Below the pieces are notes generated by a model, which worked only from the letters and a program-made list of their open reading frames with translations, had not been told where the DNA came from and did not search any database. Below are positions 1 through 12,211 of a stretch of DNA of 32,000 bases, in pieces (positions within the stretch are counted from its first letter, which is position 1; each line of letters starts with the position of its first letter). The translations under genes and the position numbers were made by a program. The DNA comes from Megasphaera elsdenii DSM 20460 (GTDB lineage: Bacteria; Bacillota; Negativicutes; Veillonellales; Megasphaeraceae): assembly GCF_003010495.1 (NCBI RefSeq), contig NZ_CP027570.1:1-32000 (forward strand), given 5' to 3'.

Positions 1-3000
1 CTGGCTCTTGTCTTCGTAGATGATGCGCGTTATGCCATCTGTCCCATCGACGCCTGCTTTACCTTTGTCGCCCTTGATGGTGAGGCCGTTGGCCCCATCC
101 TTGCCATTCAGGCCGATGCTGCCGTCCCTGCCGTTGATGACTACGGCCGAGCCGTCTTTGCCATTGACACCGATCGTACCGTCAACACCATTCTTGCCCG
201 GTTCGCCTTTTTCACCGACCGTGACGCTGTTGCCCTTGATGTCCTTGTCCATCTTGATGGTCAGGCTGCCATCGGTATTCCCGATGACCTTGAGGTTTTC
301 TCCGGAATAATTCGCATCCGCTTTCGTGCCTTCCCCTTGGATGGTCAGTTTCTGGCCCAGGTTGCGGTGAACGGTGACTTCCTTGTTGTTACCCTGGAAA
401 TCCAGGCCTTTCATTTTCAGGTCAGTTTCCGTAGTCTGAACAATGTTCTTCACGTCCCCGATATTCGCGCCGTTGGTCAGCGTGTTATAGGTCGGTTTGC
501 CATCAGCCGTGCCATCGGAGCCGCTGCCCATGTTCTTCACCTGGTTGCCGCCCAGCATTACATTGCCCTCTGTGATGGCAATATTCTTATTTGTATCATC
601 ATTCTTGATGGTCAGGCCGCTGTTGTCGATGGTGGTATTTCCCGTCGTGACACTCGTCAGGTCCGTCAGCTTCTTTGCCATCTGGACTTTCAGTTTGCCA
701 TCGGCCGTACTCTGGACAGCGATGTTCTTATCCGTCAGGTCGCCCTGGGCTCCGCCGACGATGTCGAGCTGTTCATTCAGTTTCTTCGTGATGACCTTAT
801 CATCATCGCCCTTGAACTTCAGGCCGTCATCAAGGGTAGCCACTTCATGTTTGGTCTGGCTCTTGTCTTCGTAGATGATGCGCGTTATGCCATCTGTCCC
901 ATCGACGCCTGCTTTACCTTTGTCGCCCTTGATGGTGAGGCCGTTGGCCCCATCCTTGCCATTCAGGCCGATGCTGCCGTCCCTGCCGTTGATGACTACG
1001 GCCGAGCCGTCTTTGCCATTGACACCGATCGTACCGTCAACACCATTCTTGCCCGGTTCGCCTTTTTCACCGACCGTGACGCTGTTGCCCTTGATGTCCT
1101 TGTCCATCTTGATGGTCAGGCTGCCATCGGTATTCCCGATGACCTTGAGGTTTTCTCCGGAATAATTCGCATCCGCTTTCGTGCCTTCCCCTTGGATGGT
1201 CAGTTTCTGGCCCAGGTTGCGGTGAACGGTGACTTCCTTGTTGTTACCCTGGAAATCCAGGCCTTTCATTTTCAGGTCAGTTTCCGTAGTCTGAACAATG
1301 TTCTTCACGTCCCCGATATTCGCGCCGTTGGTCAGCGTGTTATAGGTCGGTTTGCCATCAGCCGTGCCATCGGAGCCGCTGCCCATGTTCTTCACCTGGT
1401 TGCCGCCCAGCATTACATTGCCCTCTGTGATGGCAATATTCTTATTTGTATCATCATTCTTGATGGTCAGGCCGCTGTTGTCGATGGTGGTATTTCCCGT
1501 CGTGACACTCGTCAGGTCCGTCAGCTTCTTTGCCATCTGGACTTTCAGTTTGCCATCGGCCGTACTCTGGACAGCGATGTTCTTATCCGTCAGGTCGCCC
1601 TGGGCTCCGCCGACGATGTCGAGCTGTTCATTCAGTTTCTTCGTGATGACCTTATCATCATCGCCCTTGAACTTCAGGCCGTCATCAAGGGTAGCCACTT
1701 CATGTTTGGTCTGGCTCTTGTCTTCGTAGATGATGCGCGTTATGCCATCTGTCCCATCGACGCCTGCTTTACCTTTGTCGCCCTTGATGGTGAGGCCGTT
1801 GGCCCCATCCTTGCCATTCAGGCCGATGCTGCCGTCCCTGCCGTTGATGACTACGGCCGAGCCGTCTTTGCCATTGACACCGATCGTACCGTCAACACCA
1901 TTCTTGCCCGGTTCGCCTTTTTCACCGACCGTGACGCTGTTGCCCTTGATGTCCTTGTCCATCTTGATGGTCAGGCTGCCATCGGTATTCCCGATGACCT
2001 TGAGGTTTTCTCCGGAATAATTCGCATCCGCTTTCGTGCCTTCCCCTTGGATGGTCAGTTTCTGGCCCAGGTTGCGGTGAACGGTGACTTCCTTGTTGTT
2101 ACCCTGGAAATCCAGGCCTTTCATTTTCAGGTCAGTTTCCGTAGTCTGAACAATGTTCTTCACGTCCCCGATATTCGCGCCGTTGGTCAGCGTGTTATAG
2201 GTCGGTTTGCCATCAGCCGTGCCATCGGAGCCGCTGCCCATGTTCTTCACCTGGTTGCCGCCCAGCATTACATTGCCCTCTGTGATGGCAATATTCTTAT
2301 TTGTATCATCATTCTTGATGGTCAGGCCGCTGTTGTCGATGGTGGTATTTCCCGTCGTGACACTCGTCAGGTCCGTCAGCTTCTTTGCCATCTGGACTTT
2401 CAGTTTGCCATCGGCCGTACTCTGGACAGCGATGTTCTTATCCGTCAGGTCGCCCTGGGCTCCGCCGACGATGTCGAGCTGTTCATTCAGTTTCTTCGTG
2501 ATGACCTTATCATCATCGCCCTTGAACTTCAGGCCGTCATCAAGGGTAGCCACTTCATGTTTGGTCTGGCTCTTGTCTTCGTAGATGATGCGCGTTATGC
2601 CATCTGTCCCATCGACGCCTGCTTTACCTTTGTCGCCCTTGATGGTGAGGCCGTTGGCCCCATCCTTGCCATTCAGGCCGATGCTGCCGTCCCTGCCGTT
2701 GATGACTACGGCCGAGCCGTCTTTGCCATTGACACCGATCGTACCGTCAACACCATTCTTGCCCGGTTCGCCTTTTTCACCGACCGTGACGCTGTTGCCC
2801 TTGATGTCCTTGTCCATCTTGATGGTCAGGCTGCCATCGGTATTCCCGATGACCTTGAGGTTTTCTCCGGAATAATTCGCATCCGCTTTCGTGCCTTCCC
2901 CTTGGATGGTCAGTTTCTGGCCCAGGTTGCGGTGAACGGTGACTTCCTTGTTGTTACCCTGGAAATCCAGGCCTTTCATTTTCAGGTCAGTTTCCGTAGT

Positions 3001-3850
3001 CTGAACAATGTTCTTCACGTCTCCGATATTCGCGCCGTTGGTCAGCGTGTTATAGGTCGGTTTGCCATCAGCCGTGCCATCGGAGCCGCTGCCCATGTTC
3101 TTCACCTGGTTGCCGCCCAGCATTACATTGCCCTCTGTGATGGCAATATTCTTATTTGTATCATCATTCTTGATGGTCAGGCCGCTGTTGTCGATGGTGG
3201 TATTTCCCGTCGTGACACTCGTCAGGTCCGTCAGCTTCTTTGCCATCTGGACTTTCAGTTTGCCATCGGCCGTACTCTGGACAGCGATGTTCTTATCCGT
3301 CAGGTCGCCCTGGGCTCCGCCGACGATGTCGAGCTGTTCATTCAGTTTCTTCGTGATGACCTTATCATCATCGCCCTTGAACTTCAGGCCGTCATCAAGG
3401 GTAGCCACTTCATGTTTGGTCTGGCTCTTGTCTTCGTAGATGATGCGCGTTATGCCATCTGTCCCATCGACGCCTGCTTTACCTTTGTCGCCCTTGATGG
3501 TGAGGCCGTTGGCCCCATCCTTGCCATTCAGGCCGATGCTGCCGTCCCTGCCGTTGATGACTACGGCCGAGCCGTCTTTGCCATTGACACCGATCGTACC
3601 GTCAACGCCATCCTTGCCCGGCGTACCCGGTTCGCCTTTTTCGCCGACCGTGACACTGTTGCCCTTGATGTCCTTGTCCATCTTGATGGTCAGGCTGCCA
3701 TCGGTATTCCCGATTACCTTGAGGTTTTCTCCGGAATAATTCGTATCCGCTTTCGTGCCTTCCCCTTGGATGGTCAGTTTCTGGCCCAGGTCACGGTGAA
3801 CGGTGACGTCATTGTTGCCCTGGAAATCCAGGCCTTTCGTTTTCAGGTTT
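1..3850 (-). repeat. 855-bp (285-codon) tandem repeat array inside the adhesin gene; 4 near-identical copies plus a diverging fifth, truncated by the window edge
   Basis: Copies 1-855, 856-1710, 1711-2565 and 2566-3420 are identical except for one synonymous C>T at 3022 (GGG>GGA Gly on the coding strand). The copy starting at 3421 carries a 9-bp insertion at about 3621-3629 plus point changes. Homology fades by about 3850. The repeated plus-strand ORFs in the track (20, 875, 1730, 2585, 3440) show the same 855 period. Confidence 0.97.
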
Positions 3851-6800
3851 TCAGTATTCTCAGCAACCATATTAGCAACTGCATAAAGCTGGCTGCCATT
3901 AACAGCGTCTGTACTAGCTGCGGTAAGCAACCCTGGCGCGACATTTTGAATCCGGCGCGTAGCGTCTGGAGAACCAACACTCACAATACCTGAAGTAACG
4001 GTACCACCTGCATACGTCAGCGTCGCACCGCCAATTTTATCGCTAGTATAGGTTTTCGACTTTCCTTTTGTCGATTTACTTTCTAATTCTGAAGTATATG
4101 CTGATCCGCTTCCTAGGAACACGGAATTATCCGTTGTCTTCGTAACGAGATTCCCAAGAATCACAACATCATGATTGTCAGGATTCGTCACATTATTATT
4201 ATTCCCAACAACAGTGACCCCAGAGGCCTTTACCGTATTACTATGGCCTAAAATATTTGCACCAGAAAGGTCCGCTTTGCCGTCGGCCCGTTCAATCACA
4301 TTAGATTTGCCGATTGCCACAGATTCACTAGCTTTTACGGAAGTACTATCGCCAATGGCTATTGCCGGATAATTATACATCGATGTGTCCGTTAAGTTCC
4401 CCGAAGCTTTAGCCCCATAACCGATGGCAATGTCTTTCCCCGTCAGAGCCTCTGCCCCATTTCCGATAGCCAATGTATCCTTGCTTCCGGCTTGTGCACT
4501 GCGACCAAGCGCAATAGAATCATCTGCCGCAGCCGTACCGCCAAGACCAGCCAGAGAGTTGCCACCCAAAGCTTTGCTTCCCTCACCAAAAGCCAATGAG
4601 TTGTTGCCTTCTGCCGTGGAATCACTGCCGAAGGCTGTAGCACTTTCACCACTGGCAACCGTCCGTTCCCCAAAGGCCGTGGCATAGGTGCCGCTGGCTA
4701 CAGTGCCGATTTTAGACGTGGTCCCATCTCCATTGTCGACAACTTTGTCTCCGCCGCCCCAGGCTGTAGCATACTGCCCTGTTGCCTGGTTCTTGTTGCC
4801 AAAGGCTGTCGCCCCAGTTGCGGTTGCCTGGGTCAAATTGCCGAAGGCCGTAGCGTTCTGCCCGGAAGCCAGAGTATCGATACCAAAAGCCGTGGCATTG
4901 GATTGGGTCGCCTGGGTCCGCTGGCCAAAAGCCGTGGCCCGCTTTTCCGTGGCCTGGGTTCCCTGCCCGAAGGCCGTGGAATTGCTGCCGCTGGCCTTAC
5001 TCCGTTCCCCGAAGGCCACTGAATTATCTCCGATGGCTTGATTGTTGGCTGCTGGAGCCGTATTGTCCGTCTGTTGGCCTCCAAAGGCCAACGCATAGCG
5101 ACCGGAAGCTGTGCCATACTGGCCGATGACCGTAGCGCCTACACCATCCGCTTTGGCTCCGGTACCGATAGCTACGGCATTTTCGCCCGTTGCCGAGGCA
5201 CTGACCCCCGCAGCCAGGGCGTTACTCCCGGTGGCACCGGCATTGTTGTAGTTGCTATCGGTGGTCGAATCTACAGAGTTTACGCTGTAATCGTGGACAC
5301 CGCTGCCGCCGGTTCCGCTTCCCCCGCCATTGTTGACCAGATTAACCACCTGTTTCAGCTGGGCCACGTTGACGGCATCCGTATCTTCTTTCCCGGCGGC
5401 TACATTGGTAATCTGGCGGGTCTGCTGAGCATAGTGGACATTTTTCGATCCATCCCAGACATAATGGTCAGAAGAACCTACGGAAACAGCGGCCAGAGTA
5501 GAATTCCACACCGGATCGGAACCGGCATTGTGATTTTTGTTATTGCTTGCCGGGTCATATCCCCCCTGATTGTTGGCTTCCCGGTCTGCATAAGCCTGGC
5601 TGCCCAGAGCCACGGCATCGTGAACATTTAACGCAACCGCCGCGTTAGCTCCCATGGCCACACTACGCTGTGCACCATCATTAACGACAGCATTATAGCC
5701 GATAGCAACAGCACTACCACCGCTATTGCTTGTCTTAGAGCTGGCTGTACTAGCCTTGGCCCCGATGGCAATATCGTAGCCGGCCATAGCCTGTGCATTC
5801 GTACCAATGGCGATAATACTACCATCTTTGTTCGTCGCTACATCTCTATTATTTCCCGTATAGGCTTCATAGCCGATAGCAAGGCTCTGGCCGTTTTTTG
5901 CATTAGCGCCTTTACCGATGGCAATGGCTCCATTGATCCCTTGAGAATTATTATTGCCAATCTTGGCCTCATGACCAAAGGCGATAGAATCCTTTGTCAT
6001 GGCCTGCGAACCCGTGCCGATGGCAATGGAATCAGTGGCACCATTGTTATTGTTAGACTGTGCATTGACCGAATTACCGATAGCGATGCTGCCGTCATGA
6101 AGGGCACTGCTGTACTTGCCAATGACCAGGGCATTTTTTTCAGATTTGTTTCCAAGGCCTACGGCTATGCTGTAATCTCCGCTCTGCTTGTCTAAATTGA
6201 TTGGGCTGGTGTTTCCTTGATTATGGTCCATGGAAATCTTATTGCCGACACCTACGGCCATGCCGGAAATTTTATCAATACTATTCTTGTCGCCAGCAGC
6301 TAAATTATAATCGCCTTTAATCGTATTCTCTGAACCAATGGCATGGCTTTGATAAGCTTTCCGTTCTCTGCCACTCGACTGGAGCGCATCGACCGTATTC
6401 TGGTAGCCAATAGCACTGCTGTAATCACCATGAGCGGTATTTTCTACACCAAGGGTTGCCGTGTAATAGCCATCGGCATTGTTTGCGTGACCGATGGCTG
6501 TACTAGCGTACTTTGCTCTGTCATCCTTGCCGATAGCTACGGCGTTATAATCAGTATTACTGTTTTCACCGATAGCTACGCTATACTCTTTCGCATTGGA
6601 CTGATGACCAATAGCCACGGCCGAACGGCCTTCTGCCTGCACATCACTACCTAAAGCCACTGCATCGGAGGAGTCAATGAGACGTGGCACCATATAGTAC
6701 CGGTCTATAAAGGTCCCATCCGAAGCATAATATCCCTGCCGGCTGCTAGTAATGTTCCCATTTTCATCCAGCCAATAGCCGGCGGAATCCTTGTCACTAG

Positions 6801-7653
6801 TCAGTTTGCCATATTGGTCCACGTAGTAGGTGCTGACAGAGTTCAGGACCTTTGCCTTGTTGCCGATGGCTGTTGAATGGTTCCCCTCGGCTACGTTGTC
6901 TACACCCACCGCCGTAGCTCCACTGACGTAATAGGATTGTCGAGTCTGATTTTGGCTGTAATAGGTAGCCACGTTGTTGTATACTTCCACAGCTTTGTTG
7001 TAATCTTCGTCCGTACTATAATATCTTCGATCTGGATATTTAGCCCGAACATTGTACTCGTCATCCATGTATTGGCCTGGCGTCAGTTTATAGACTTCCA
7101 CCTGTTTATCATCATAGGTGCTTGTGTTAGGATTATAGACCTTTACGGTTATCCATTCCGTATCCATCTTCTGGTAGTCATAGGATGCATCTTCACTAAC
7201 CGGTTTCTTGGGATTTTCAGAATGAGTAAAGGTTCCCACGCCGTTGCGTGTCCCCAAGACAACGTTTTCCGGTCTATCTTCTATACGAGCATTCCCAGTC
7301 TTAGGGTCTTTCTGAATAGAAACGACTTCATTATCCTTGCCTACAATCAGATTTCCCTGAGAATCATAGGTGGCATAGGCATCTGTTCCTTGGGCGGTTG
7401 CATCTTTCTTATTTTCGATATTCACTGCCTGATTGGAAGACGGATTCCCACTGTTTGTAGCTGCTGCCTGAACCCAGTCTGGAGCAGTAAAGAGCGACGT
7501 CGTCAAGACAAAGGCTGCCAGGACAGTGGCTTTTCGACAACATCCTCTGCGGCTGCGACGTACATGGCCGACGTCATGGCTCTTGGCCAATTCTGAGACG
7601 ACGACATAACAATTTCTTGCTTTACTCCAAATAACTTTAAAGATTTTATTCAT
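1..7653 (-). CDS. Trimeric autotransporter adhesin (YadA/Hia-type, type Vc); 5' end complete, 3' end runs off the left window edge (at least 2551 codons)
   Basis: Absent from the ORF track because it has no stop inside the window. A reverse-strand ATG at 7653-7651 follows a GAGAGGGG SD-like run. Hand translation gives MNKIFKVIWSKARNCYVVVSELAKSH, the extended signal peptide region of type V autotransporters. The frame was open everywhere I translated (7653-7000, 6720-6661, 6060-6001, 4740-4621, 3960-3601, 855-1), and 7653 is divisible by 3, so both ends share one frame. YadA-head-like 14-residue repeats (SIAIGTGSQA, TAFGERTVASGESATAFGSD) span about 6900-4000. A canonical neck, ATRRIQNVAPGLLTAASTDAVNGSQLYAVANMV, lies at 3963-3865, followed by 285-aa stalk repeats. 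The C-terminal beta-barrel anchor must lie outside the window. Confidence 0.9.
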   Translation of the reverse strand, partial: MNKIFKVIWSKARNCYVVVSELAKSHDVGHVRRSRRGCCRKATVLAAFVLTTSLFTAPDWVQAAATNSGNPSSNQAVNIENKKDATAQGTDAYATYDSQGNLIVGKDNEVVSIQKDPKTGNARIEDRPENVVLGTRNGVGTFTHSENPKKPVSEDASYDYQKMDTEWITVKVYNPNTSTYDDKQVEVYKLTPGQYMDDEYNVRAKYPDRRYYSTDEDYNKAVEVYNNVATYYSQNQTRQSYYVSGATAVGVDNVAEGNHSTAIGNKAKVLNSVSTYYVDQYGKLTSDKDSAGYWLDENGNITSSRQGYYASDGTFIDRYYMVPRLIDSSDAVALGSDVQAEGRSAVAIGHQSNAKEYSVAIGENSNTDYNAVAIGKDDRAKYASTAIGHANNADGYYTATLGVENTAHGDYSSAIGYQNTVDALQSSGRERKAYQSHAIGSENTIKGDYNLAAGDKNSIDKISGMAVGVGNKISMDHNQGNTSPINLDKQSGDYSIAVGLGNKSEKNALVIGKYSSALHDGSIAIGNSVNAQSNNNNGATDSIAIGTGSQAMTKDSIAFGHEAKIGNNNSQGINGAIAIGKGANAKNGQSLAIGYEAYTGNNRDVATNKDGSIIAIGTNAQAMAGYDIAIGAKASTASSKTSNSGGSAVAIGYNAVVNDGAQRSVAMGANAAVALNVHDAVALGSQAYADREANNQGGYDPASNNKNHNAGSDPVWNSTLAAVSVGSSDHYVWDGSKNVHYAQQTRQITNVAAGKEDTDAVNVAQLKQVVNLVNNGGGSGTGGSGVHDYSVNSVDSTTDSNYNNAGATGSNALAAGVSASATGENAVAIGTGAKADGVGATVIGQYGTASGRYALAFGGQQTDNTAPAANNQAIGDNSVAFGERSKASGSNSTAFGQGTQATEKRATAFGQRTQATQSNATAFGIDTLASGQNATAFGNLTQATATGATAFGNKNQATGQYATAWGGGDKVVDNGDGTTSKIGTVASGTYATAFGERTVASGESATAFGSDSTAEGNNSLAFGEGSKALGGNSLAGLGGTAAADDSIALGRSAQAGSKDTLAIGNGAEALTGKDIAIGYGAKASGNLTDTSMYNYPAIAIGDSTSVKASESVAIGKSNVIERADGKADLSGANILGHSNTVKASGVTVVGNNNNVTNPDNHDVVILGNLVTKTTDNSVFLGSGSAYTSELESKSTKGKSKTYTSDKIGGATLTYAGGTVTSGIVSVGSPDATRRIQNVAPGLLTAASTDAVNGSQLYAVANMVAENTENLKTKGLDFQGNNDVTVHRDLGQKLTIQGEGTKADTNYSGENLKVIGNTDGSLTIKMDKDIKGNSVTVGEKGEPGTPGKDGVDGTIGVNGKDGSAVVINGRDGSIGLNGKDGANGLTIKGDKGKAGVDGTDGITRIIYEDKSQTKHEVATLDDGLKFKGDDDKVITKKLNEQLDIVGGAQGDLTDKNIAVQSTADGKLKVQMAKKLTDLTSVTTGNTTIDNSGLTIKNDDTNKNIAITEGNVMLGGNQVKNMGSGSDGTADGKPTYNTLTNGANIGDVKNIVQTTETDLKMKGLDFQGNNKEVTVHRNLGQKLTIQGEGTKADANYSGENLKVIGNTDGSLTIKMDKDIKGNSVTVGEKGEPGKNGVDGTIGVNGKDGSAVVINGRDGSIGLNGKDGANGLTIKGDKGKAGVDGTDGITRIIYEDKSQTKHEVATLDDGLKFKGDDDKVITKKLNEQLDIVGGAQGDLTDKNIAVQSTADGKLKVQMAKKLTDLTSVTTGNTTIDNSGLTIKNDDTNKNIAITEGNVMLGGNQVKNMGSGSDGTADGKPTYNTLTNGANIGDVKNIVQTTETDLKMKGLDFQGNNKEVTVHRNLGQKLTIQGEGTKADANYSGENLKVIGNTDGSLTIKMDKDIKGNSVTVGEKGEPGKNGVDGTIGVNGKDGSAVVINGRDGSIGLNGKDGANGLTIKGDKGKAGVDGTDGITRIIYEDKSQTKHEVATLDDGLKFKGDDDKVITKKLNEQLDIVGGAQGDLTDKNIAVQSTADGKLKVQMAKKLTDLTSVTTGNTTIDNSGLTIKNDDTNKNIAITEGNVMLGGNQVKNMGSGSDGTADGKPTYNTLTNGANIGDVKNIVQTTETDLKMKGLDFQGNNKEVTVHRNLGQKLTIQGEGTKADANYSGENLKVIGNTDGSLTIKMDKDIKGNSVTVGEKGEPGKNGVDGTIGVNGKDGSAVVINGRDGSIGLNGKDGANGLTIKGDKGKAGVDGTDGITRIIYEDKSQTKHEVATLDDGLKFKGDDDKVITKKLNEQLDIVGGAQGDLTDKNIAVQSTADGKLKVQMAKKLTDLTSVTTGNTTIDNSGLTIKNDDTNKNIAITEGNVMLGGNQVKNMGSGSDGTADGKPTYNTLTNGANIGDVKNIVQTTETDLKMKGLDFQGNNKEVTVHRNLGQKLTIQGEGTKADANYSGENLKVIGNTDGSLTIKMDKDIKGNSVTVGEKGEPGKNGVDGTIGVNGKDGSAVVINGRDGSIGLNGKDGANGLTIKGDKGKAGVDGTDGITRIIYEDKSQ

Positions 7654-7694
7654 AGGATATCCCCTCTCTTTGAATATATTTCATAATAAGATAT

Positions 7695-7712
7695 ATGAAA
7701 TATTCGTGCCAA
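7695..7712 (-). promoter_or_regulatory. Candidate sigma-54 (-24/-12) promoter upstream of the adhesin gene
   Basis: The reverse strand reads TTGGCACGAATATTTCAT, i.e. TGGCACG-N4-TTTC against consensus TGGCACG-N4-TTGC. The -24 element and the spacing are exact, but the conserved G of the -12 GC is a T. It lies about 40 nt upstream of the adhesin ATG and downstream of a sigma-54 activator gene. An alternative sigma-70-like TTATAC-N17-TATAAT (-10 at 7749-7754, minus strand) also exists. Confidence 0.3.
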
Positions 7713-7788
7713 ATAGAGGGAATTACAAATAGATGGGTCTATTATGCCATTATAGCCTCGTTTTGCAACGCGTATAAAAGTGTCATAT

Positions 7789-7805
7789 TGTTGCTAAATG
7801 CAACA
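7789..7805. promoter_or_regulatory. Perfect inverted repeat TGTTGC-N5-GCAACA; candidate activator (UAS) site
   Basis: tgttgc taaat gcaaca was read directly. A third TGCAAC half-site lies at 7764-7769. These sit 50-95 bp upstream of the -24 motif, the usual distance for bacterial enhancer-binding proteins. Confidence 0.2.
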
Positions 7806-7844
7806 TTTTATGGCAAAAAATATTATACTGAGACAGGGCATAGT

Positions 7845-7975
7845 AAAAAAGCTTGCCTCATGTGCGACAAGCTTTTTAAGTGGTTAGTGGCTAGTGGTTA
7901 GCAGATGGCTTTAAATATAAAAACCATTACCTCAAACATAGGAGAAAGGGACCTTGCATGATGTTCGCTAATTTC
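7845..7975. repeat. Composite palindromic intergenic element, copy E1 (hairpin - heptad arm - GGATGG/TTTAAAT core - AC arm - half hairpin)
   Basis: An A-run plus hairpin gcttgcctcatgtgcgacaagc plus T-run lies at 7845-7880. Heptads gtggtta gtggcta gtggtta follow, then the core gcagatggctttaaatat at 7901-7918, the AC-rich arm cctcaaacata, and a half hairpin aaagggaccttgcatgatgttcgc that abuts the activator stop codon at 7979. On the minus strand the 7845-7880 hairpin is followed by TTTTTT, so it is the likely terminator of the activator gene. Confidence 0.75.
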
Positions 7976-7978
7976 GCG

Positions 7979-9481
7979 CTACATATCCTTTTTATTTTGA
8001 TATTTTTGCCGCATCCGGTAAATCGTCGAGCGGCTGATGCCGAGTTCTTTGGCGATATCCGATACGCTTTTACCGTCTTGGTACAGTTTTTCAATGTAAT
8101 CATACGTCATGGCCTTGAGATTCCGGTCGCGGACATTCTTGTCCGGCACGACAGGCGGATTGGGCAGGACCCAGGCTAAGTCGGGCAAGGTAATCTTTTC
8201 CTCACGGACGACCAAGGACAGGCGTTCGATGGTATTGGCCAGCTGACGGACATTTCCCGGCCAGGGAAGGGTCTGGAAATAATCGAGGACGTCCTGCCCC
8301 AAATCATGAGGCTGACCGTATTGTTCATTGAACCGCTGAAGCAGGGTCCGGGCAAGGACGGCCACATCCTCTCTGCGCTGGCGCAAGGGCGGCATGTGGA
8401 TGAGCAGGACAGCCAGGCGGTAATAGAGGTCCAGCCGGAAGTGGTGCTCCTGGACAGCCTGTTCTAAATCCTTATTCGTCGCGGCAATGATACGGACGTC
8501 AATGGGAATGACATTGTGAGCACCCAGGCGGCGGACACTGCGTTCCTGCAAGACCCGAAGCAAGTGGTTCTGCAAATTATACGGCATATCTCCGATTTCG
8601 TCGAGGAATAAGGTTCCCCCATTTGCTGCTTCAAAGAGCCCTTCACGGCCATCACGGCGCGCTCCCGTAAAGGAACCGCCGGTATAACCAAAGAGTTCAC
8701 TCTCTAAGAGGCTTTCTGAGACGGCCCCACAGTTGATGGCGATGAACGGCCCGTGACACCGGCTGCTCAGATTGTGGATAGCCTGGGCCATCATTTCTTT
8801 TCCCGTCCCCGATTCACCGGTAATGAGGATGGTCGATTCCGTAGCGGCATAAATCCGGGCCAACCTTTTGACTTGCTGCATCATAGGCGAAGTACCGATG
8901 ATATCGTCCAAATGATAATAGGCCATCATCCCGGACCGCGATGAAATCGTCCTTCCCGGGGCCATCCGGGATTGACGCAGGCTCCACAGGGCTTTGAAAA
9001 AAGCCCGCACGAGGCCGCCCCATCCTGGCTGCAAGGGAATCCAGCCCAGTCCTTCGCCACGAGCATACGTTTCGATACCGGCACTCCCGACGACATACTG
9101 GATGCCTGAAAGTGCCGCCTGATGGACGGCGGTCTGCATCGCCCGCTCATCGCTATCCGAGGCCAGGCAATAAAAAGTGACCCCCATCGCCTTGAACTGC
9201 ACCTCTAAACCATCATAATAGGCGCGCAGCGAAAAGGGAATGATGACGCCGCAGGATTTCCCCTCGGGAACCTGACGGACACAATTCAACAAATCGAGGA
9301 CGCTGGGCTGGACGACAAAAACTCGTTGCTGCGGATACGTGGCGGCGACAGCCGAAGCCATCGGGTCCCACAAAATGACGGCATCCCGGCCGGCCTGGAT
9401 ACTTTTCCGGATCCGATACGCCGCATCAGCCGCACTGCCATCAATCAAATCAAGATGGGCCAGCTTCCGCTTCTGTGTCAC
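7979..9481 (-). CDS. Sigma-54-dependent transcriptional activator (PrpR_N-like sensor + AAA+ sigma-54 interaction domain + Fis-type HTH)
   Basis: The central domain has Walker A GESGTGKE, a GSFTGA loop (GAFTGA variant) and Walker B LFLDEIG. The C-terminal HTH is SVSDIAKELGISRSTIYRMRQKY. The tracked start is a GTG with no Shine-Dalgarno sequence. The frame is open for 34 more codons upstream, and an ATG at 9587 is one base out of frame across a G9 tract (see findings), so the true 5' end is uncertain. Confidence 0.88.
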   Translation of the reverse strand: MTQKRKLAHLDLIDGSAADAAYRIRKSIQAGRDAVILWDPMASAVAATYPQQRVFVVQPSVLDLLNCVRQVPEGKSCGVIIPFSLRAYYDGLEVQFKAMGVTFYCLASDSDERAMQTAVHQAALSGIQYVVGSAGIETYARGEGLGWIPLQPGWGGLVRAFFKALWSLRQSRMAPGRTISSRSGMMAYYHLDDIIGTSPMMQQVKRLARIYAATESTILITGESGTGKEMMAQAIHNLSSRCHGPFIAINCGAVSESLLESELFGYTGGSFTGARRDGREGLFEAANGGTLFLDEIGDMPYNLQNHLLRVLQERSVRRLGAHNVIPIDVRIIAATNKDLEQAVQEHHFRLDLYYRLAVLLIHMPPLRQRREDVAVLARTLLQRFNEQYGQPHDLGQDVLDYFQTLPWPGNVRQLANTIERLSLVVREEKITLPDLAWVLPNPPVVPDKNVRDRNLKAMTYDYIEKLYQDGKSVSDIAKELGISRSTIYRMRQKYQNKKDM

Positions 9482-9559
9482 AGGCAGAAATTGTTCAATT
9501 TTTGTATATAACTGGGATGATGGAGTAACGATAGAAATCTTAAAAATTTCTTGTACCCT

Positions 9560-9568
9560 CCCCCCCCC
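9560..9568. repeat. Homopolymer C9 (G9 on the coding strand of the activator gene)
   Basis: Counted directly: t9559, then c9560-c9568, then g9569. Confidence 0.95.
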
Positions 9569-9833
9569 GCATTTTTTCTGTTTTCATGGCTTATTTTTAA
9601 AAATTTAAATCATATTCTACTGTTCTATGATTACATTTCATATTGCAAACGGAGATAGCCATATTATATCATGTATTTATAAAATTTATATAACATAATA
9701 AAACTAATTGTTATTAACTGATTTATGTATTTTATATTTGATTAATGTTTTTATATAATAAGATAATATAGATATCATATAAAATATTATTTTATTCATA
9801 CATTATCATACGAAAATTTTATAATTCAGCTTT

Positions 9834-9882
9834 AAAAAAAGACCTCGCATGGACATAGTCCTTATCATGCGAGGTCTTTTTT
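9834..9882. terminator. Bidirectional rho-independent terminator downstream of the DUF362 gene
   Basis: An A7 run is followed by the 11-bp stem gacctcgcatg (9841-9851) / catgcgaggtc (9866-9876) and a T6 run. U-tracts are available on both strands. Confidence 0.8.
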
Positions 9883-9915
9883 AAAGCATATGTATAGCGT
9901 TACAAAGCCAATATA

Positions 9916-11040
9916 TCAGCGGACGCAGACGAGTTCGTATTCCCGTGTGCCTAAGCCGATTTTTTCAGCGTGTTCCAGTGTCGTCTTCCAATCGACGTTG
10001 GGGTTACTGTCGAGGAAGTGGTCATGATGATGGTGCCAATCAGGTTTGGCCAGGTTATCCGACAACTGGCTGTTGGGCATAGGCGCTGCTTTCATGCAGG
10101 CATCGGCACAGGCCTGATCGAGAGCAACCGGGTCAAAGGAAGCGAACATGCCGATGTCTGGCAGGATAGGCGCATCATTTTCAGCATGGCAGTCGCAATT
10201 CGGCGAAACGTCCATGACCAGATTGATGTGGAAGCATGGGCGATCCTGGCAGACAGCCTGGGCGTATTCGGCCATCTTGCGGTCCAGTTTTTCATTGGCA
10301 TCCCATTCGACGGTTTCAATGGCGTCGAAGGCACAGGCGCCGATGCAGCGGCCGCAGCCTTTGCACAGGTCTTCGTGGATATGGGCGACGTTATTTTCAT
10401 AGGTAATGGCGTCAGAACCGCATTCCTGCGCGCAGCGATGACAGTTCTTGCACTTGCTTTCGTCGACTTTCGGTTTGCCCGACGAATGTTGTTCCATCTT
10501 GCCGGCACGGCTGCCGCAGCCCATGCCGATATTCTTAATGGCGCCGCCAAAGCCCGTCATTTCGTGGCCTTTGAAGTGAGCCAGGCTGATGAAGACGTCC
10601 GCATCCATAATGGCCCGGCCGATTTTCGCTTTTTCAACGTATTCACCATTCTTAACGGGCACTTCTACTTCATCGGTGCCACGCAAGCCGTCGCCGATGA
10701 TAATCTGACAGCCTGTCGTGACCGTGTTATAGCCATTGAGGTTGGCACAGTCCAAGTGTTCCAGTGCGTGCTTACGGCTGCCCGGATACAGCGTATTGCA
10801 ATCCGTCAAAAACGGGCGGCCGCCCAATTCCTTAACCAAATCGGCAACAGCCTTGACATACTGCGGCCGCAGCGAAGCCAGACAGCCCAGTTCGCCGAAG
10901 TGCATCTTGATGGCGACAAATTTCCCTTCAAAATTGATTCTTTCAATGCCTGCTTTTTTGCAGAGCTTCTGCAGTTTCTGCAGGTTGTTCTTGCCCGGCC
11001 GGCAGCGGAAATCCGTAAAATATACCTTCGCTTTTTCCAT
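9916..11040 (-). CDS. DUF362-family protein with inserted 2x[4Fe-4S] ferredoxin domain
   Basis: The 374-aa ORF starts MEKAKVYFTDFRC. It has two CxxCxxCxxxC motifs (CKNCHRCAQEC, CKGCGRCIGAC). An AGGAGGG SD lies 7 nt upstream of the ATG. Confidence 0.82.
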   Translation of the reverse strand: MEKAKVYFTDFRCRPGKNNLQKLQKLCKKAGIERINFEGKFVAIKMHFGELGCLASLRPQYVKAVADLVKELGGRPFLTDCNTLYPGSRKHALEHLDCANLNGYNTVTTGCQIIIGDGLRGTDEVEVPVKNGEYVEKAKIGRAIMDADVFISLAHFKGHEMTGFGGAIKNIGMGCGSRAGKMEQHSSGKPKVDESKCKNCHRCAQECGSDAITYENNVAHIHEDLCKGCGRCIGACAFDAIETVEWDANEKLDRKMAEYAQAVCQDRPCFHINLVMDVSPNCDCHAENDAPILPDIGMFASFDPVALDQACADACMKAAPMPNSQLSDNLAKPDWHHHHDHFLDSNPNVDWKTTLEHAEKIGLGTREYELVCVR

Positions 11041-11070
11041 GAGTATTCCCTCCTAAAACCAGTTATCTTC

Positions 11071-11101
11071 ATTGTACCACCTGAAGTACGCTCTAAGTCA
11101 A
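11071..11101 (-). promoter_or_regulatory. Candidate extended -10 promoter of the DUF362 gene
   Basis: The reverse strand reads TTGACT-N19-TACAAT, with TGG immediately before the -10 (TGnTACAAT). The 19-nt spacer is long, so the call rests on the extended -10. Confidence 0.35.
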
Positions 11102-11147
11102 CTATTTACTTATAACCGAGATGTAAAAAATCGATATGCAAAAAAAC

Positions 11148-11176
11148 TTGACGGATAGCGCATACCATGATATACT
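11148..11176 (+). promoter_or_regulatory. Sigma-70-type promoter of tRNA-Ser
   Basis: TTGACG (11148-11153), 17-nt spacer, TATACT (11171-11176), preceded by TGA (extended -10). The tRNA begins 16 nt after the -10. Confidence 0.6.
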
Positions 11177-11191
11177 AGCAAAGTACCTTAT

Positions 11192-11280
11192 GGAGCGGTA
11201 TCGAAGTGGTCATAACGGGGCTGACTCGAAATCAGTTAGGCCGAAAGGTCTCGTGGGTTCGAATCCCACCCGCTCCGCCA
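11192..11280 (+). tRNA. tRNA-Ser (anticodon CGA), CCA encoded
   Basis: The acceptor stem GGAGCGG pairs with CCGCTCC. The anticodon arm is GCTGA-CTCGAAA-TCAGT, giving anticodon CGA. There is a long variable arm (TAGGCCGAAAGGTCTC), a T arm GTGGG-TTCGAAT-CCCAC, discriminator G and CCA. Length is 89 nt, typical of class II Ser tRNAs. Confidence 0.95.
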
Positions 11281-11285
11281 AATCG

Positions 11286-11331
11286 AAAGCGCACTGATAA
11301 GCCATTCATGGAACTTATCAGTGCGCTTTTT
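11286..11331. terminator. Bidirectional terminator shared by tRNA-Ser and the convergent doc gene
   Basis: The 14-bp stem agcgcactgataag (11288-11301) pairs with cttatcagtgcgct (11314-11327). It is flanked by AAA on the left and TTTTT on the right. The doc stop codon is at 11332-11334. Confidence 0.8.
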
Positions 11332-11736
11332 CTATGTTTCCATTTTCTTATGTTTCAATAACCATTGTTTGATTCCATCACTATCCAAATTATCAGCAGC
11401 AACATCAACCACCATATCTTCTAATTCTTGTTGTGTATAATCTAAATCAATCCCATTGATATAAAGAAATACCAACATGCTATGAATAGCAGAGCGTTTA
11501 TTACCATCGCGAAATGGGTGATTTTTTGTAAGGCCATAACATAATCTAGCTGCTTTATCTAAAATAGTAGGATAAAGTTCTTCCCCAGCAAATGACTGAA
11601 ACGGAGTACTTACGGCAGATTCCAGCAAATTCATATCATGAATGCCTTTATCCATAACATATCTCTGCTCCATCTCTTCATGAAAAGCAAGTACATCTTC
11701 TAGGATAATTTCTATCAATATTTGCTCGTGTTTCAT
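11332..11736 (-). CDS. doc: Doc (death-on-curing) family Fic-fold toxin
   Basis: The 134-aa ORF carries HPFRDGNKRSA, matching the Doc signature HxFx(D/N)(A/G)NKR. It overlaps the upstream small ORF by 4 nt (ATGA). Confidence 0.88.
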   Translation of the reverse strand: MKHEQILIEIILEDVLAFHEEMEQRYVMDKGIHDMNLLESAVSTPFQSFAGEELYPTILDKAARLCYGLTKNHPFRDGNKRSAIHSMLVFLYINGIDLDYTQQELEDMVVDVAADNLDSDGIKQWLLKHKKMET

Positions 11737-11891
11737 CGATTTTCTAAGTCCCTATAGGCTTTTTCATTGCGTTGAAACATGAGCTGAGAGGCCTTACGGA
11801 TTTTTTCTTTTATTTCTTGATTTCCTTTGCTGGTAAGAATTTTTCTTTCAACAGGTACCTTGATTACTTTGGCAGAATCAGATAAATTCAT
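11733..11891 (-). CDS. Putative antitoxin of the Doc module (52 aa)
   Basis: MNLSDSAKVIKVPVERKILTSKGNQEIKEKIRKASQLMFQRNEKAYRDLENR. The ATG at 11891 lies 9 nt after a perfect AAGGAG (11906-11901). The longer tracked start at 11987 has no SD. The 4-nt overlap with doc is typical of type II TA operons. The family could not be assigned by eye. Confidence 0.55.
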   Translation of the reverse strand: MNLSDSAKVIKVPVERKILTSKGNQEIKEKIRKASQLMFQRNEKAYRDLENR

Positions 11892-11992
11892 GACATTCAT
11901 CTCCTTACATACATTCTTACTCACTATAGGTGATATTAACTTATTATAAATAAGTATATCACACCTTGTAAAGTATTTACTACGCAAGCATC

Positions 11993-12171
11993 AAAAAGGC
12001 GCTGTCGCACGAAGACAGCGCCTTTTGGAGTTTGAAGTTGAAAGTTTGATGTTTGATGTGGATGGTTTTAAATTTAAAGCAATCGCCTCAAACATCATAC
12101 ATCAAACCTCAAACATTAAAGAGAAAGGGGCCTCGCATGATGGCAGAAACCTTCGTGCGACAGCCCCTTTT
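11993..12171. repeat. Composite palindromic intergenic element, copy E2 (two terminator hairpins flanking heptad arms and core)
   Basis: The left hairpin is ggcgctgtc-gcacgaa-gacagcgcc (11998-12022) with A5/T4 flanks. The left arm is tttgaag ttgaaag tttgatg tttgatg. The core gtggatggttttaaatttaaag lies at 12058-12079. The right arm is cctcaaa catcata catcaaa cctcaaa. The right hairpin aaaggggcctcgcatgatggcagaaaccttcgtgcgacagcccctttt lies at 12124-12171. The element is downstream of the typA stop (12212). Confidence 0.8.
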
Positions 12172-12211
12172 TGAATATTAAGTTTGTAAGTTGTAGTTTT
12201 TAGTGAAAAGC

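What the first reader, a model, noticed from the sequence alone, without database searches (positions are those of the whole stretch)
9540..9587. G9 homopolymer uncouples an ATG from the sigma-54 activator reading frame (phase-variable switch or homopolymer sequencing error)
- On the coding (minus) strand the tract at 9568-9560 is G9.
- An ATG at 9587 (with a second at 9572) opens the frame MKTEKMRGGEGTRNF, which stops at 9542-9540.
- The activator frame itself is open from a TGA at 9586-9584 down to the tracked GTG at 9481. It reads ...KCGGGRVQEIFKISIVTPSSQLYTKIEQFLP-V-TQKRK.
- Those 34 codons contain no ATG, GTG or TTG, and the GTG has no Shine-Dalgarno sequence.
- Deleting one G (G8) or adding two (G11) fuses ATG 9587 to the activator frame and gives a 535-aa protein.
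- The added residues, KISIVTPSSQLYTKIEQF, look like the first strand-helix unit that PrpR_N-type domains normally start with. The true N-terminus is therefore probably upstream of the tract.
- As sequenced, the gene is in an OFF or truncated configuration.
- Homopolymer-controlled regulators next to large adhesin genes are a classic phase-variation layout. A sequencing error in the homopolymer would give the same picture.
Basis: partly seen in the sequence, partly recalled or inferred. Interest (0 to 1): 0.72.

Follow-up and report, generated by a model that had tools for sequence, protein, structure and literature searches.

The report
Phase-variable poly-G switch in sigma-54 activator
A run of nine G's at the start of a Megasphaera elsdenii regulator gene is a real, naturally length-variable on/off switch, caught here in the OFF position, and it probably controls the giant adhesin gene next door.

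Summary
The organism is Megasphaera elsdenii, type-strain lineage.

**The true start lies upstream of the tract.**
- All homologues down to about 50% identity begin there.
- An AlphaFold model places strand 1 and helix 1 of the PrpR_N-like sensor fold in the "extension".
- The GTG at 9481 is GCG (Ala) in every other lineage.

G9 is the in-frame (ON) length in most strains. This lineage is OFF because it carries four extra bases (AGGG, 9559-9556) after the G9.

**It is not a read error.** G9-AGGG is assembled identically in 10 retrieved contigs from separate sequencing runs or assemblies.

**The tract is hypermutable.**
- Contigs with 0 differences over 4.3 kb of flanks carry G8 versus G10.
- G7 to G11 all occur.
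That assembly differs from the window by this single G over 16.2 kb.

**The tract looks selected.** Paralogous regulators keep their own G9 at the same codons, built from rare GGG codons.

**Likely target.** A conserved TGGCAC-N5-TTTCA element sits upstream of the adjacent trimeric-autotransporter adhesin gene and of the genes next to four paralogues. The link to the adhesin is inferred.

This is a new member of a known kind. Campylobacter flgR is the sigma-54 precedent.

The parts
9560..9568 (-). G9 homopolymer, the hypermutable tract. It encodes the Gly-Gly of the disordered N-terminal leader.
   Evidence: Length varies from G7 to G11 in natural contigs, including on identical flanks.
9556..9559 (-). 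AGGG, 4 extra bases specific to this lineage. They shift the otherwise in-frame G9 to +1 (OFF).
   Evidence: Intact alleles read ATGC-G9-TACAAG. The window and L011-L020 read ATGC-G9-AGGG-TACAAG. A related in-frame G5-AGGG allele exists.
9572..9577 (-). A6 run immediately 5' of the second ATG. It is a secondary variable homopolymer.
   Evidence: A5 and A7 variants appear in natural contigs L040, L044, L046 and L048.
9585..9587 (-). ATG no. 1, the probable true start codon of the regulator.
   Evidence: Homologues P0001 and P0004 start MKTEK here.
9570..9572 (-). ATG no. 2, in the same frame as ATG no. 1. It is ATA in some lineages.
   Evidence: P0004 and P0126 read MKTEKIRGG.
9540..9542 (-). 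TAA stop that ends the 15-codon out-of-frame product MKTEKMRGGEGTRNF.
9488..9538 (-). Codes for strand beta1 (KISIV) and helix alpha1 (SQLYTKIEQF) of the PrpR_N-like sensor domain. Any GTG-started product would lack it.
   Evidence: AlphaFold2 model: mean pLDDT 86.9, strand 16-20, helix 23-32. Foldseek matches 2PJU and 2Q5C over 196-201 columns.
9479..9481 (-). GTG used by ORF callers and RefSeq for the 500-aa product. It is lineage-specific (GCG Ala elsewhere) and has no Shine-Dalgarno.
   Evidence: WP_232501459.1 is this 500-aa call.
7979..9587 (-). Whole sigma-54 enhancer-binding-protein gene in the frameshifted OFF state. Domains: PrpR_N-like sensor, AAA+ sigma-54 interaction domain, AAA lid and a C-terminal HTH.
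   Evidence: Pfam: PF00158 at 6.8e-70, PF25601, PF02796. The downstream 500 codons are identical to the ON protein CCC73723.1.
8660..8677 (-). GSFTGA loop, a GAFTGA-type sigma-54 contact motif.
   Evidence: Read directly from the translation.
7846..7877 (-). Terminator-like hairpin between the regulator stop and the adhesin promoter region.
   Evidence: 12-bp stem, -15 kcal/mol, z = -3.2. Inverted repeat I1.
7696..7711 (-). Candidate sigma-54 promoter TGGCAC-GAATA-TTTCA, ending 42 nt upstream of the adhesin ATG. Its -12 element is non-canonical (TC instead of GC).
   Evidence: Conserved in orthologous loci of other Megasphaera species. Recurs next to four paralogous regulators.
7676..7703 (-). 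Perfect 10-nt inverted repeat (ATATTTCATA / TATGAAATAT) overlapping the -12 element and the 5' UTR. Function unknown.
   Evidence: I3.
1..7653 (-). Giant trimeric-autotransporter-type adhesin gene with an ESPR signal (MNKIFKVIWSKARNCYV). It is open for at least 2,551 codons to the window edge and is the presumed target of the regulator.
   Evidence: Orthologues carry ESPR, YadA_head, YadA_stalk, YadA_anchor and SLH domains. 855-nt perfect tandem repeats.

Best explanation
The tract is a simple-sequence contingency switch in the 5' coding region of a sigma-54 enhancer-binding protein of Megasphaera elsdenii.

**How it works**
- Slipped-strand mispairing changes the number of G's at codons 7-10. 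That stretch encodes a disordered leader, so changes of +3 or -3 bases are harmless.
- Lengths that keep ATG 9587 in frame give the full-length 534/535-aa activator (ON).
- Other lengths end translation after 15 to about 45 codons (OFF).
- In most strains G9 is ON. In the type-strain lineage sequenced here, an extra AGGG after the tract shifts the register. G9 is then OFF, and G8 or G11 would be ON.
- The 500-aa GTG-started protein in RefSeq is an annotation fallback, not a real product. It has no ribosome-binding site, the GTG is lineage-specific, and the product would lack beta1-alpha1 of its sensor domain.

**Inferred step**
- When ON, the activator drives a sigma-54-type promoter (TGGCAC-N5-TTTCA, 7711-7696) in front of the adjacent giant YadA/SLH-type adhesin gene.
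- That gene is separated from the regulator by a terminator-like hairpin.
- Tract length would therefore switch the adhesin on and off at the level of the regulator.
For: **Shown**
1. Frame anatomy.
2. Of 18 homologues read, 15 start upstream of the tract with a conserved motif and none starts at the GTG-equivalent codon.
3. beta1-alpha1 lies in the extension.
4. Ten intact alleles carry ATGC-G9-TAC. The window and 10 retrieved contigs from separate runs or assemblies carry G9-AGGG.
5. An unbiased flank-anchored scan gave G11, G8, G9 and G9.
6. All 20 contigs encoding 460-aa truncated products are out of frame. Most carry a pure G7, G8, G10 or G11. The rest are shifted wholly or partly by the adjacent A-run (A5 or A7), two of them with G9 itself.
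7. Three pairs of contigs from different samples have 0 differences in 4,344 nt of flanks but G10 versus G8. A fourth pair, from one study, has 1 difference and G9 versus G10.
8. Across 14 loci and 3.2 kb, only this A/G tract varies in length within a haplotype group. The other indels are a 14-nt heptamer copy-number change and a T6/T7 that splits 7:7.
9. The exact G8 ON protein is deposited for DSM 20460. Its chromosome is identical to the window over 16,183 nt except for this one G, and none of the other 20 homopolymers of 6 or more differs.
10. Paralogues about 50% identical keep a G9 at the same codons. GGG is a rare Gly codon here, at 10.8%, and P(CGG-GGG-GGG) is about 0.003.
11. The residue before Gly-Gly is R, W or G, all NGG codons. 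That points to conservation at the DNA level.

**Supporting the inferred target**
- GSFTGA loop and PF00158.
- Hairpin after the regulator.
- The TGGCAY-N5-TTTCA element is conserved upstream of the adhesin in other species. It also lies next to four paralogous regulators in unrelated spacers.
- The regulator-then-ESPR-adhesin layout recurs at paralogues.
Against: - Within the window's own lineage the tract is G9 in 11 of 12 observations. The single G8 comes from the 2011 assembly, whose read technology I could not verify because the paper is not held. My recollection is 454, which undercalls long homopolymers. Switching within this strain is therefore shown by one equivocal data point.
- Metagenome assemblies give consensus calls, and some are low coverage (L022 at 2.5x).
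- Retrieval by protein product was conditioned on ON or OFF state, so ON:OFF frequencies are not unbiased.
- Other lineages carry ordinary inactivating mutations in the same gene: W181 to stop, a 1-nt deletion at codon 190, and loss of both ATGs. That fits relaxed or negative selection as well as adaptive switching.
- The -12 element has TC instead of the canonical GC.
- In the window the same bases can be read as a sigma-70 promoter (TTGGCA-18-TATTAT).
- rpoN was not looked for.
- No expression data exist.
- The start codons lack a Shine-Dalgarno.
Confidence: 0.75

Rival explanations
1. Neutral decay. The homopolymer is simply a mutational hot spot in a dispensable regulator that is being lost. 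The OFF alleles are pseudogenes, not one state of an adaptive switch.
For: - Independent non-tract lesions occur in other lineages: W181 to TGA in L025, and a 1-nt deletion at codon 190 plus both ATGs mutated to ATA in L026-29.
- One orthologue (L055) has a degenerate tract and an out-of-frame ATG.
- Truncated forms are at least as common as full-length ones among the listed cluster members.
- Both cultured isolates examined are OFF: the type strain, and WILCCON 0056 at 523x coverage.
Against: - The 500 codons downstream of the frameshift are open and identical to the ON protein.
- ON alleles are common, and the same protein haplotypes occur in both states.
- G9 is maintained at the same codons in paralogues about 50% identical, using rare GGG codons. 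Neutral drift would erase it through synonymous changes.
- Some paralogues have dual-frame start codons, which makes sense only if tract length matters.
Confidence: 0.14
2. Sequencing or assembly artefact. The window's G9 is a miscalled homopolymer and the gene is really intact.
For: - Long-read-only assemblies of this strain exist. ATCC 25940 was assembled from PacBio RS II reads with Canu only (PMC6346161).
- One other assembly of the strain has G8.
Against: - Identical G9-AGGG appears in 10 retrieved contigs: one NCBI assembly and nine Logan assemblies from separate runs.
- The difference from intact alleles is a 4-nt AGGG that includes an A, not a +1 or -1 homopolymer error.
- None of the other 20 homopolymers of 6 or more in 16 kb differs between the two type-strain assemblies.
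Confidence: 0.02
3. The OFF allele still makes functional protein. One route is RNA-polymerase slippage or ribosomal frameshifting on the G9. The other is initiation at GTG 9481, giving an N-terminally truncated and possibly deregulated activator. The tract would then tune expression rather than switch it.
For: - Long homopolymers are known slippage sites (general knowledge).
- The GCG-to-GTG change is found only in the frameshifted lineage. That could be compensatory.
- Removing regulatory N-domains can deregulate some enhancer-binding proteins (general knowledge).
Against: - GTG 9481 has no Shine-Dalgarno (2/6) and lies 59 nt after the leader stop.
- The product would lose beta1-alpha1 of a single alpha/beta domain and probably misfold, rather than cleanly lose the domain.
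- Other OFF lineages have no GTG there.
- Transcript slippage is best documented for A/T runs.
- There is no direct evidence either way.
Confidence: 0.07

Closest known systems
Campylobacter jejuni flgR / flgS phase variation (Hendrixson 2006, 2008, as summarised in PMC8355987)
   Same: A sigma-54-dependent activator system is switched off and on by indels in intragenic homopolymers. Control of a surface structure is placed at the regulator level.
   Different: - The Campylobacter tracts are short A/T runs (fewer than 7) and are described as largely non-reversible. Here the tract is a G9 at the extreme 5' end with G7 to G11 seen in nature.
- FlgR is a response regulator with a receiver domain and controls flagella. 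This protein has a PrpR_N-like sensor domain and sits next to an adhesin.
- The organism is a Negativicute gut and rumen commensal.
Bordetella bvgS poly-C frameshift phase variation (recalled from general knowledge, not checked here)
   Same: A homopolymer G/C frameshift in a master regulator switches adhesin and virulence genes collectively.
   Different: That case is a two-component sensor kinase acting on sigma-70 promoters, with the tract in mid-gene. It is not a family of paralogous regulators that each carry a tract.
Haemophilus influenzae lic1A-type 5' repeat switches with alternative in-frame ATGs (recalled from general knowledge)
   Same: A 5' coding repeat is preceded by start codons in different frames, so more than one repeat register gives protein. 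This parallels the ATGAATG dual starts of the Megasphaera paralogues.
   Different: - Those switches use tetranucleotide repeats in an LOS-modification enzyme, not a homopolymer in a transcription factor.
- The window gene itself has both ATGs in one frame.
Phasevarions (phase-variable Mod methyltransferases of Haemophilus, Neisseria and Helicobacter; example PMC5700931)
   Same: A simple-sequence repeat in a regulator-like gene randomises expression of downstream genes.
   Different: Phasevarions act epigenetically and globally through DNA methylation. Here the presumed action is a dedicated activator on an adjacent promoter.
PrpR (propionate catabolism activator) and the C. acetobutylicum NtrC-family regulator, PDB 2PJU and 2Q5C
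   Same: Same domain plan: a PrpR_N-fold sensor, an AAA+ sigma-54 domain and a C-terminal HTH.
   Different: - Only 17-20% identity in the N-domain, and the Pfam PrpR_N score is below the curated cut-off.
- No prp genes are nearby.
- No homopolymer switch is known in those proteins.

Membership tests
Bacterial sigma-54 enhancer-binding protein (bEBP) | AAA+ sigma-54 interaction domain (PF00158) | tested here: met
   PF00158 E = 6.8e-70, 234.5 bits against a cut-off of 20.2, residues 229-396 of the fused form. The AAA lid PF25601 also matches.
Bacterial sigma-54 enhancer-binding protein (bEBP) | GAFTGA-type sigma-54 contact loop | tested here: met
   GSFTGA at residues 269-274 of the 500-aa frame, window 8677-8660. 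It is a one-residue variant of GAFTGA.
Bacterial sigma-54 enhancer-binding protein (bEBP) | C-terminal DNA-binding helix-turn-helix | tested here: met
   HTH_7 2e-09 and HTH_23 5e-09. HTH_8 (Fis type) scores 19.3 bits, below its cut-off.
Bacterial sigma-54 enhancer-binding protein (bEBP) | A -24/-12 (GG-N10-GC) promoter at the target gene | tested here: inconclusive
   TGGCAC-N5-TTTCA lies upstream of the adhesin. It is conserved across species and recurs next to four paralogues. However, the -12 dinucleotide is TC, not GC, and no transcription start was mapped.
Bacterial sigma-54 enhancer-binding protein (bEBP) | rpoN (sigma-54) present in the genome | not tested
   rpoN is not in the window. 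A literature search found nothing specific to Megasphaera.
PrpR_N-type sensor domain (PF06506) | Pfam profile match above the gathering score | tested here: not met
   24.7 bits against a cut-off of 29.1, covering residues 42-200 only. Several homologues do carry a precomputed PF06506 hit.
PrpR_N-type sensor domain (PF06506) | Same three-dimensional fold as solved PrpR_N domains, including the first strand-helix unit | tested here: met
   - AlphaFold2 model: mean pLDDT 86.9, pTM 0.78.
- Foldseek: 2PJU E = 3.3e-07 and 2Q5C E = 8.6e-07, probability 1.0, TM 0.5-0.58, with 196-201 of 206 columns aligned.
- A sequence-only search of PDB found nothing.
Simple-sequence-repeat contingency (phase-variable) locus | Homopolymer of about 8 or more within the 5' coding region or promoter, where length sets the reading frame | tested here: met
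   G9 at codons 7-10. G8 and G11 restore the frame.
Simple-sequence-repeat contingency (phase-variable) locus | Tract length polymorphic among otherwise identical or near-identical genomes | tested here: met
   - G8 versus G10 with 0 differences in 4,344 nt.
- G9 versus G10 with 1 difference.
- G8 versus G9 as the only difference in 16,183 nt between two type-strain assemblies.
Simple-sequence-repeat contingency (phase-variable) locus | Both ON and OFF registers observed in natural populations | tested here: met
   ON alleles: G9, G8-AGGG and G5-AGGG. OFF alleles: G7, G8, G10, G11 and G9-AGGG, plus alleles shifted by the adjacent A-run (A5 or A7).
Simple-sequence-repeat contingency (phase-variable) locus | High-frequency reversible switching within a clonal culture | not testable with these tools
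   This needs raw reads or amplicon deep sequencing of single-colony cultures.
Simple-sequence-repeat contingency (phase-variable) locus | A phenotype that switches with tract length | not testable with these tools
   No expression or phenotype data exist. The adhesin link is inferred from gene order and the promoter motif.

The most novel reading that the evidence does not exclude
Megasphaera carries a whole family of paralogous sigma-54 activators. Each has a conserved 5' poly-G switch, and each sits next to its own TGGCAC-N5-TTTCA promoter, with an adhesin gene downstream in the cases examined. Some paralogues have two start codons in different frames, so two of three registers make protein with different leaders.

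Together these would form a combinatorial, regulator-level surface-variation system in a gut and rumen commensal of the Negativicutes. It would be a counterpart to the invertible promoters of Bacteroides and the phasevarions of mucosal pathogens.
Probability: 0.45. Interest if true: 0.7.

Novelty: new member of a known kind. Interest (0 to 1): 0.52.

Why it matters
- Simple-repeat phase variation is textbook for mucosal pathogens such as Neisseria, Haemophilus, Campylobacter and Helicobacter. I found no report of it for Megasphaera.
- If the switch works as proposed, M. elsdenii populations hedge their bets on expressing a giant surface adhesin. M. elsdenii is a rumen probiotic candidate, a human and pig gut commensal and an industrial chain-elongation strain. 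Adhesin state could affect colonisation, aggregation, and phage or immune exposure.
- Stocks of the same type strain may differ in phenotype because of one G.
- There is a practical annotation point. RefSeq's 500-aa WP_232501459.1, the 518-aa call in WILCCON 0056 and the many 460/489-aa metagenome calls are truncation artefacts of OFF alleles.
- Tract length at this locus could be read directly from metagenomes as an in-situ ON/OFF readout.

Tried and rejected
The profile starts matching only at residue 42 and scores below its cut-off, so it cannot decide the N-terminus. I replaced it with homologue N-termini, an AlphaFold model and Foldseek.
- **Sequence-only search of PDB with the N-domain.** It returned only chance CD1 hits.
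- **"Simple +1 G" model.** Rejected. Intact alleles also have G9, and the lesion is a 4-nt AGGG.
- **Sequencing technology of the 2011 DSM 20460 genome.** Marx et al. is not held, and a review gave no method. This stays unresolved.
- **Tandem Repeats Finder on the adhesin.** It found nothing because the 855-nt period exceeds its 500 limit. The repeat finder recovered the array.
- **Terminator scan.** It did not list the 7877-7846 hairpin, whose 8-nt loop is flanked by an A/U-rich stem. I confirmed the hairpin by folding.
- **Sigma-70 reading of the TGGCAC element** (TTGGCA-18-TATTAT). It is not excluded in the window. By my inspection of the sequences printed, its -10 is not conserved at fixed spacing in orthologues, whereas the TGGCAY-N5-TTTCA spacing is kept.
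- **Rfam scan of 7400-10000.** It gave only a sub-threshold chance hit.
- **Literature search for Megasphaera rpoN.** Nothing specific was found.
Full report
**1. The observation**

Every coordinate holds on the minus strand.
- ATG 9587-9585, a second in-frame ATG at 9572-9570, and G9 at 9568-9560.
- The frame reads MKTEKMRGGEGTRNF and ends at TAA 9542-9540.
- The activator frame is open from TGA 9586-9584. It has no ATG, GTG or TTG until GTG 9481-9479, from which the ORF finder calls a 500-aa product ending at 7979.
- Removing one G gives 535 aa and adding two gives 536 aa.
- The GTG has no Shine-Dalgarno (2/6). Neither ATG has one either (3/6), whereas the neighbouring DUF362 gene has a perfect AGGAGG.

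A G/C run of 9 or more is not rare under a naive model: it appears in 26% of first-order Markov simulations. The real window, however, is depleted of G/C runs. This is the only one longer than 6 in 32 kb, while 98.5% of simulations have a run of 7 or more. The run's position and its comparative behaviour make it meaningful.

**2. What the gene is**

- The product is a sigma-54 enhancer-binding protein. It has PF00158 (6.8e-70), an AAA lid, a C-terminal HTH and a GSFTGA sigma-54 contact loop.
- The organism is Megasphaera elsdenii. The 500-aa product is WP_232501459.1, and the window matches the type-strain chromosome.

**3. Where the protein really starts**

- Pfam's PrpR_N profile matches only from residue 42 and scores below its cut-off.
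- Homologues do decide. I read 18 relatives at 49-99% identity. Fifteen begin upstream of the tract with M-x4-6-(R/W/G)-G-G-V-x-x-x-F-(K/R)-(I/F/V)-S-(I/V)-(V/I)-(T/A)-P. The other three (P0002, P0003, P0007) have truncated or aberrant N-termini. None starts at the GTG-equivalent codon.
- An AlphaFold2 model of the N-domain is confident (mean pLDDT 86.9, pTM 0.78). Residues 1-11 are disordered, and they include the tract-encoded Gly-Gly. Strand beta1 is at 16-20 (KISIV), helix alpha1 at 23-32, and beta2 only at 44-48.
- Foldseek aligns 196-201 of the 206 residues to the PrpR N-domain structures 2PJU and 2Q5C (E about 3e-07 to 9e-07).
- A GTG-started protein would therefore lack the first strand-helix unit of a single alpha/beta domain.
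- The GTG is GCG (Ala) in every other allele examined. It is a start-type codon only in this lineage.

**4. The actual lesion**

- Ten contigs encoding the intact 534-aa protein read ATGC-G9-TACAAG. G9 is therefore the in-frame length.
- The window reads ATGC-G9-AGGG-TACAAG, a 4-nt insertion that acts as +1.
- The identical G9-AGGG allele, with the linked GTG, is present in all 10 retrieved contigs that encode the 500-aa product. These are NCBI GCA_965137425.1 and nine Logan assemblies from separate runs. Two contigs over 1 Mb also carry the product.
- This excludes a homopolymer read error in the window.
- A related in-frame allele, G5-AGGG, exists in three samples. Within the G(n)-AGGG architecture, n = 5 (ON), 8 (ON) and 9 (OFF) are all observed.

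**5. Is the tract hypermutable?**

- *Unbiased scan.* A scan of metagenome contigs anchored only on the flanks returned four contigs with G11, G8, G9 and G9.
- *Truncated products.* The 90%-identity protein cluster (821 members) holds many 460-aa and 489-aa N-terminally truncated products besides the 534-aa forms.
- *All 20 truncated-product contigs are out of frame.* Most carry a pure G7, G8, G10 or G11. The rest are shifted wholly or partly by the neighbouring A-run (A5 or A7), two of them with G9 itself.
- *Identical backgrounds.* L030/L031, L030/L033 and L034/L036 come from different samples. Each pair has 0 mismatches and 0 gaps over 4,344 nt of flanks, yet G10 versus G8. L044/L046 come from one study, with contigs of 80,930 and 80,931 bp. 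They differ at one flank base and by G9 versus G10.
- *Specificity.* Across 14 loci and 3.2 kb, the only length changes within a haplotype group are at this A/G tract. The other indels are a 14-nt heptamer copy-number change and a T6/T7 that splits 7:7.
- *ON and OFF on the same protein.* P0123 (OFF) equals P0131 (ON) over 459 residues. The window's product equals P0139 over 499.

**6.

- The exact 535-aa G8 protein is in the databases as CCC73723.1, M. elsdenii DSM 20460, HE576794.
- That chromosome and the window are identical over 16,183 aligned bases except for one G in this tract. The only other differences lie at the edge of the adhesin's tandem repeats.
- None of the other 20 homopolymers of 6 or more in that span differs.
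- ATCC 25940 is the same strain as DSM 20460 (PMC6346161).
- Caveat: I could not retrieve the 2011 genome paper. I recall that it used 454 data, which undercalls long homopolymers. This single within-strain ON observation is suggestive, not conclusive.

**7. Is the tract a selected feature?**

- Orthologues in other Megasphaera species and paralogues only 39-50% identical carry G-runs at the same codons:

| Locus | Tract | State |
|---|---|---|
| L051 | G9 | ON |
| L052 (isolate WILCCON 0056, 523x) | G9 in a different register | OFF |
| L053 | G8-A-GG | OFF |
| L059 | G4-A-G4 | ON |
| L060 | G8-T-G4 | OFF |
| L061 | G6 | ON |
| P0023 loci | TATC-G9-TAATG | ON |
| P0021 loci | ATAA-G9-TAATG | ON |

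- One paralogue subfamily (FRSGL) has no tract.
- GGG is a rare Gly codon here, 10.8% against 67.6% for GGC. From codon usage, CGG-GGG-GGG would encode R-G-G with P of about 0.003.
- The residue before Gly-Gly is R, W or G, all NGG codons. That is what conservation of the DNA run predicts, rather than conservation of the amino acid.
- Several paralogues also have overlapping ATGAATG starts in two frames. Database proteins use either one, MNDDKIYRGGV... or MTIDFIRGGV....

**8. What it probably controls (inferred)**

- *Adhesin gene.* The gene immediately downstream on the same strand starts at ATG 7653 with an ESPR-type signal, MNKIFKVIWSKARNCYV. It stays open for at least 2,551 codons to the window edge and contains at least 4 perfect 855-nt repeats. 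Orthologues carry YadA head, stalk and anchor domains plus an SLH domain.
- *Terminator.* A stable hairpin follows the regulator at 7877-7846 (-15 kcal/mol, z = -3.2).
- *Promoter.* TGGCAC-GAATA-TTTCA lies at 7711-7696, ending 42 nt upstream of the adhesin ATG.
  - The element and its spacing are kept upstream of the adhesin in other species, even where sequence further upstream has diverged.
  - The same TGGCAY-N5-TTTCA recurs downstream of four paralogous regulators in unrelated spacers. By my calculation, the degenerate pattern is expected about 0.003 times per 350-nt spacer on the relevant strand.
  - The -12 dinucleotide is TC rather than the canonical GC.
  - In the window the same bases can also be read as a sigma-70 promoter. 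By my inspection of the sequences, that -10 is not conserved in the orthologues.
  - I rate the regulator-to-adhesin link as likely but unproven. rpoN was not checked.

**9. Rivals**

- *Neutral decay.* Supported by other inactivating lesions in some lineages: W181 to stop, a 1-nt deletion at codon 190, and loss of both ATGs. Also supported by OFF states in both cultured isolates. It does not explain conservation of a rare-codon G9 across paralogues, or the intact downstream frame.
- *Sequencing error.* Excluded for the window (section 4).
- *Leaky expression by slippage, or a GTG-initiated truncated activator.* Cannot be excluded, but nothing supports it.

**10. Comparison with known systems and verdict**

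- The closest sigma-54 precedent is C. jejuni flgR/flgS. Indels in short A/T runs switch the flagellar activator there, and they are described as largely non-reversible (PMC8355987).
- Bordetella bvgS, H. influenzae lic1A-type multi-ATG repeats and the Mod phasevarions are mechanistic relatives (recalled from general knowledge).
- No paper in the library links Megasphaera to phase variation.
- This is a well-supported new member of a known kind. It comes with a family-level twist worth following up, and with a concrete correction to current annotations.

Noticed in passing
L062-L070 (paralogue loci); compare window 9570-9587: Paralogous Megasphaera sigma-54 activators have overlapping ATGAATG starts in two frames upstream of their own G9. 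Two of three tract registers therefore give full-length protein, with different 6-8-aa leaders (MNDDKIYRGGV... versus MTIDFIRGGV...). The window gene has both ATGs in one frame.
   Followed up: partly
window 1-3720 (+ coordinates), inside the adhesin gene: There are at least 4 perfect (100% identical) 855-nt (285-aa) tandem repeats plus a diverged copy. The 2011 DSM 20460 assembly departs from the window exactly at the repeat edge. Either the repeats were collapsed there or the copy number truly differs.
   Followed up: partly
window 7881-7901 (-): Three CTARCCA heptamers (CTAACCA CTAGCCA CTAACCA) lie in the regulator-adhesin spacer. A 14-nt (two-unit) presence/absence polymorphism occurs among the 14 loci compared.
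   Followed up: no
window 7815-7820 (-): A T6 run upstream of the adhesin promoter is T6 in half and T7 in half of the 14 loci compared. It looks like a fixed lineage difference rather than hypervariation.
   Followed up: no
L025; L026-L029: The same regulator is independently inactivated in other lineages. L025 has W181 TGG to TGA. L026-29 have a 1-nt deletion at codon 190 plus both start ATGs mutated to ATA. The latter lineage gives the 316-aa NCBI protein WP_278949452.1.
   Followed up: yes
window about 11040-12212 (GC 0.37 at 11001-12000): A low-GC insert between the BipA/TypA and DUF362 genes carries a small Fic-domain gene (134 aa) and a 52-aa ORF in the type-strain lineage. The spacer is about 650 nt shorter and lacks these genes in L001.
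   Followed up: no
window 7676-7703 (-): A perfect 10-nt inverted repeat, ATATTTCATA-N8-TATGAAATAT, overlaps the -12 element and the adhesin 5' UTR. It is conserved with the promoter in orthologues. It could be an operator or a leader hairpin.
   Followed up: no
window 7789-7805: The palindrome TGTTGCATTTAGCAACA lies about 80-95 nt upstream of the candidate -24 element. A related GTTGCAAAA lies nearby. It is a candidate activator-binding site. The terminator scan flagged it on the + strand.
   Followed up: no
L050 19280-19879 (HE576794, beyond the window's left edge): A 199-aa fragment carrying only the AAA-lid and HTH parts of another activator paralogue lies downstream of the adhesin and a RelB-like gene. 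It is probably a remnant of a further regulator copy.
   Followed up: no
L002, L009, L010, L041-L047, L062-L063, L071-L073 (adhesin regions): In several lineages the adhesin locus is called as short pieces (ESPR 205 aa, then 152/174 aa, and so on, or a 55-aa ESPR ORF overlapping a 980-aa ORF) instead of one 1,400-2,800-aa gene. The adhesin itself may carry frameshifts or a different modular architecture.
   Followed up: no
window 7979-9481 (annotation): Three sets of database calls are gene-caller fallbacks on OFF alleles, not real N-termini: RefSeq WP_232501459.1 (500 aa, GTG start), the 518-aa call in Megasphaera sp. WILCCON 0056, and the many 460/489-aa metagenome proteins.
   Followed up: yes
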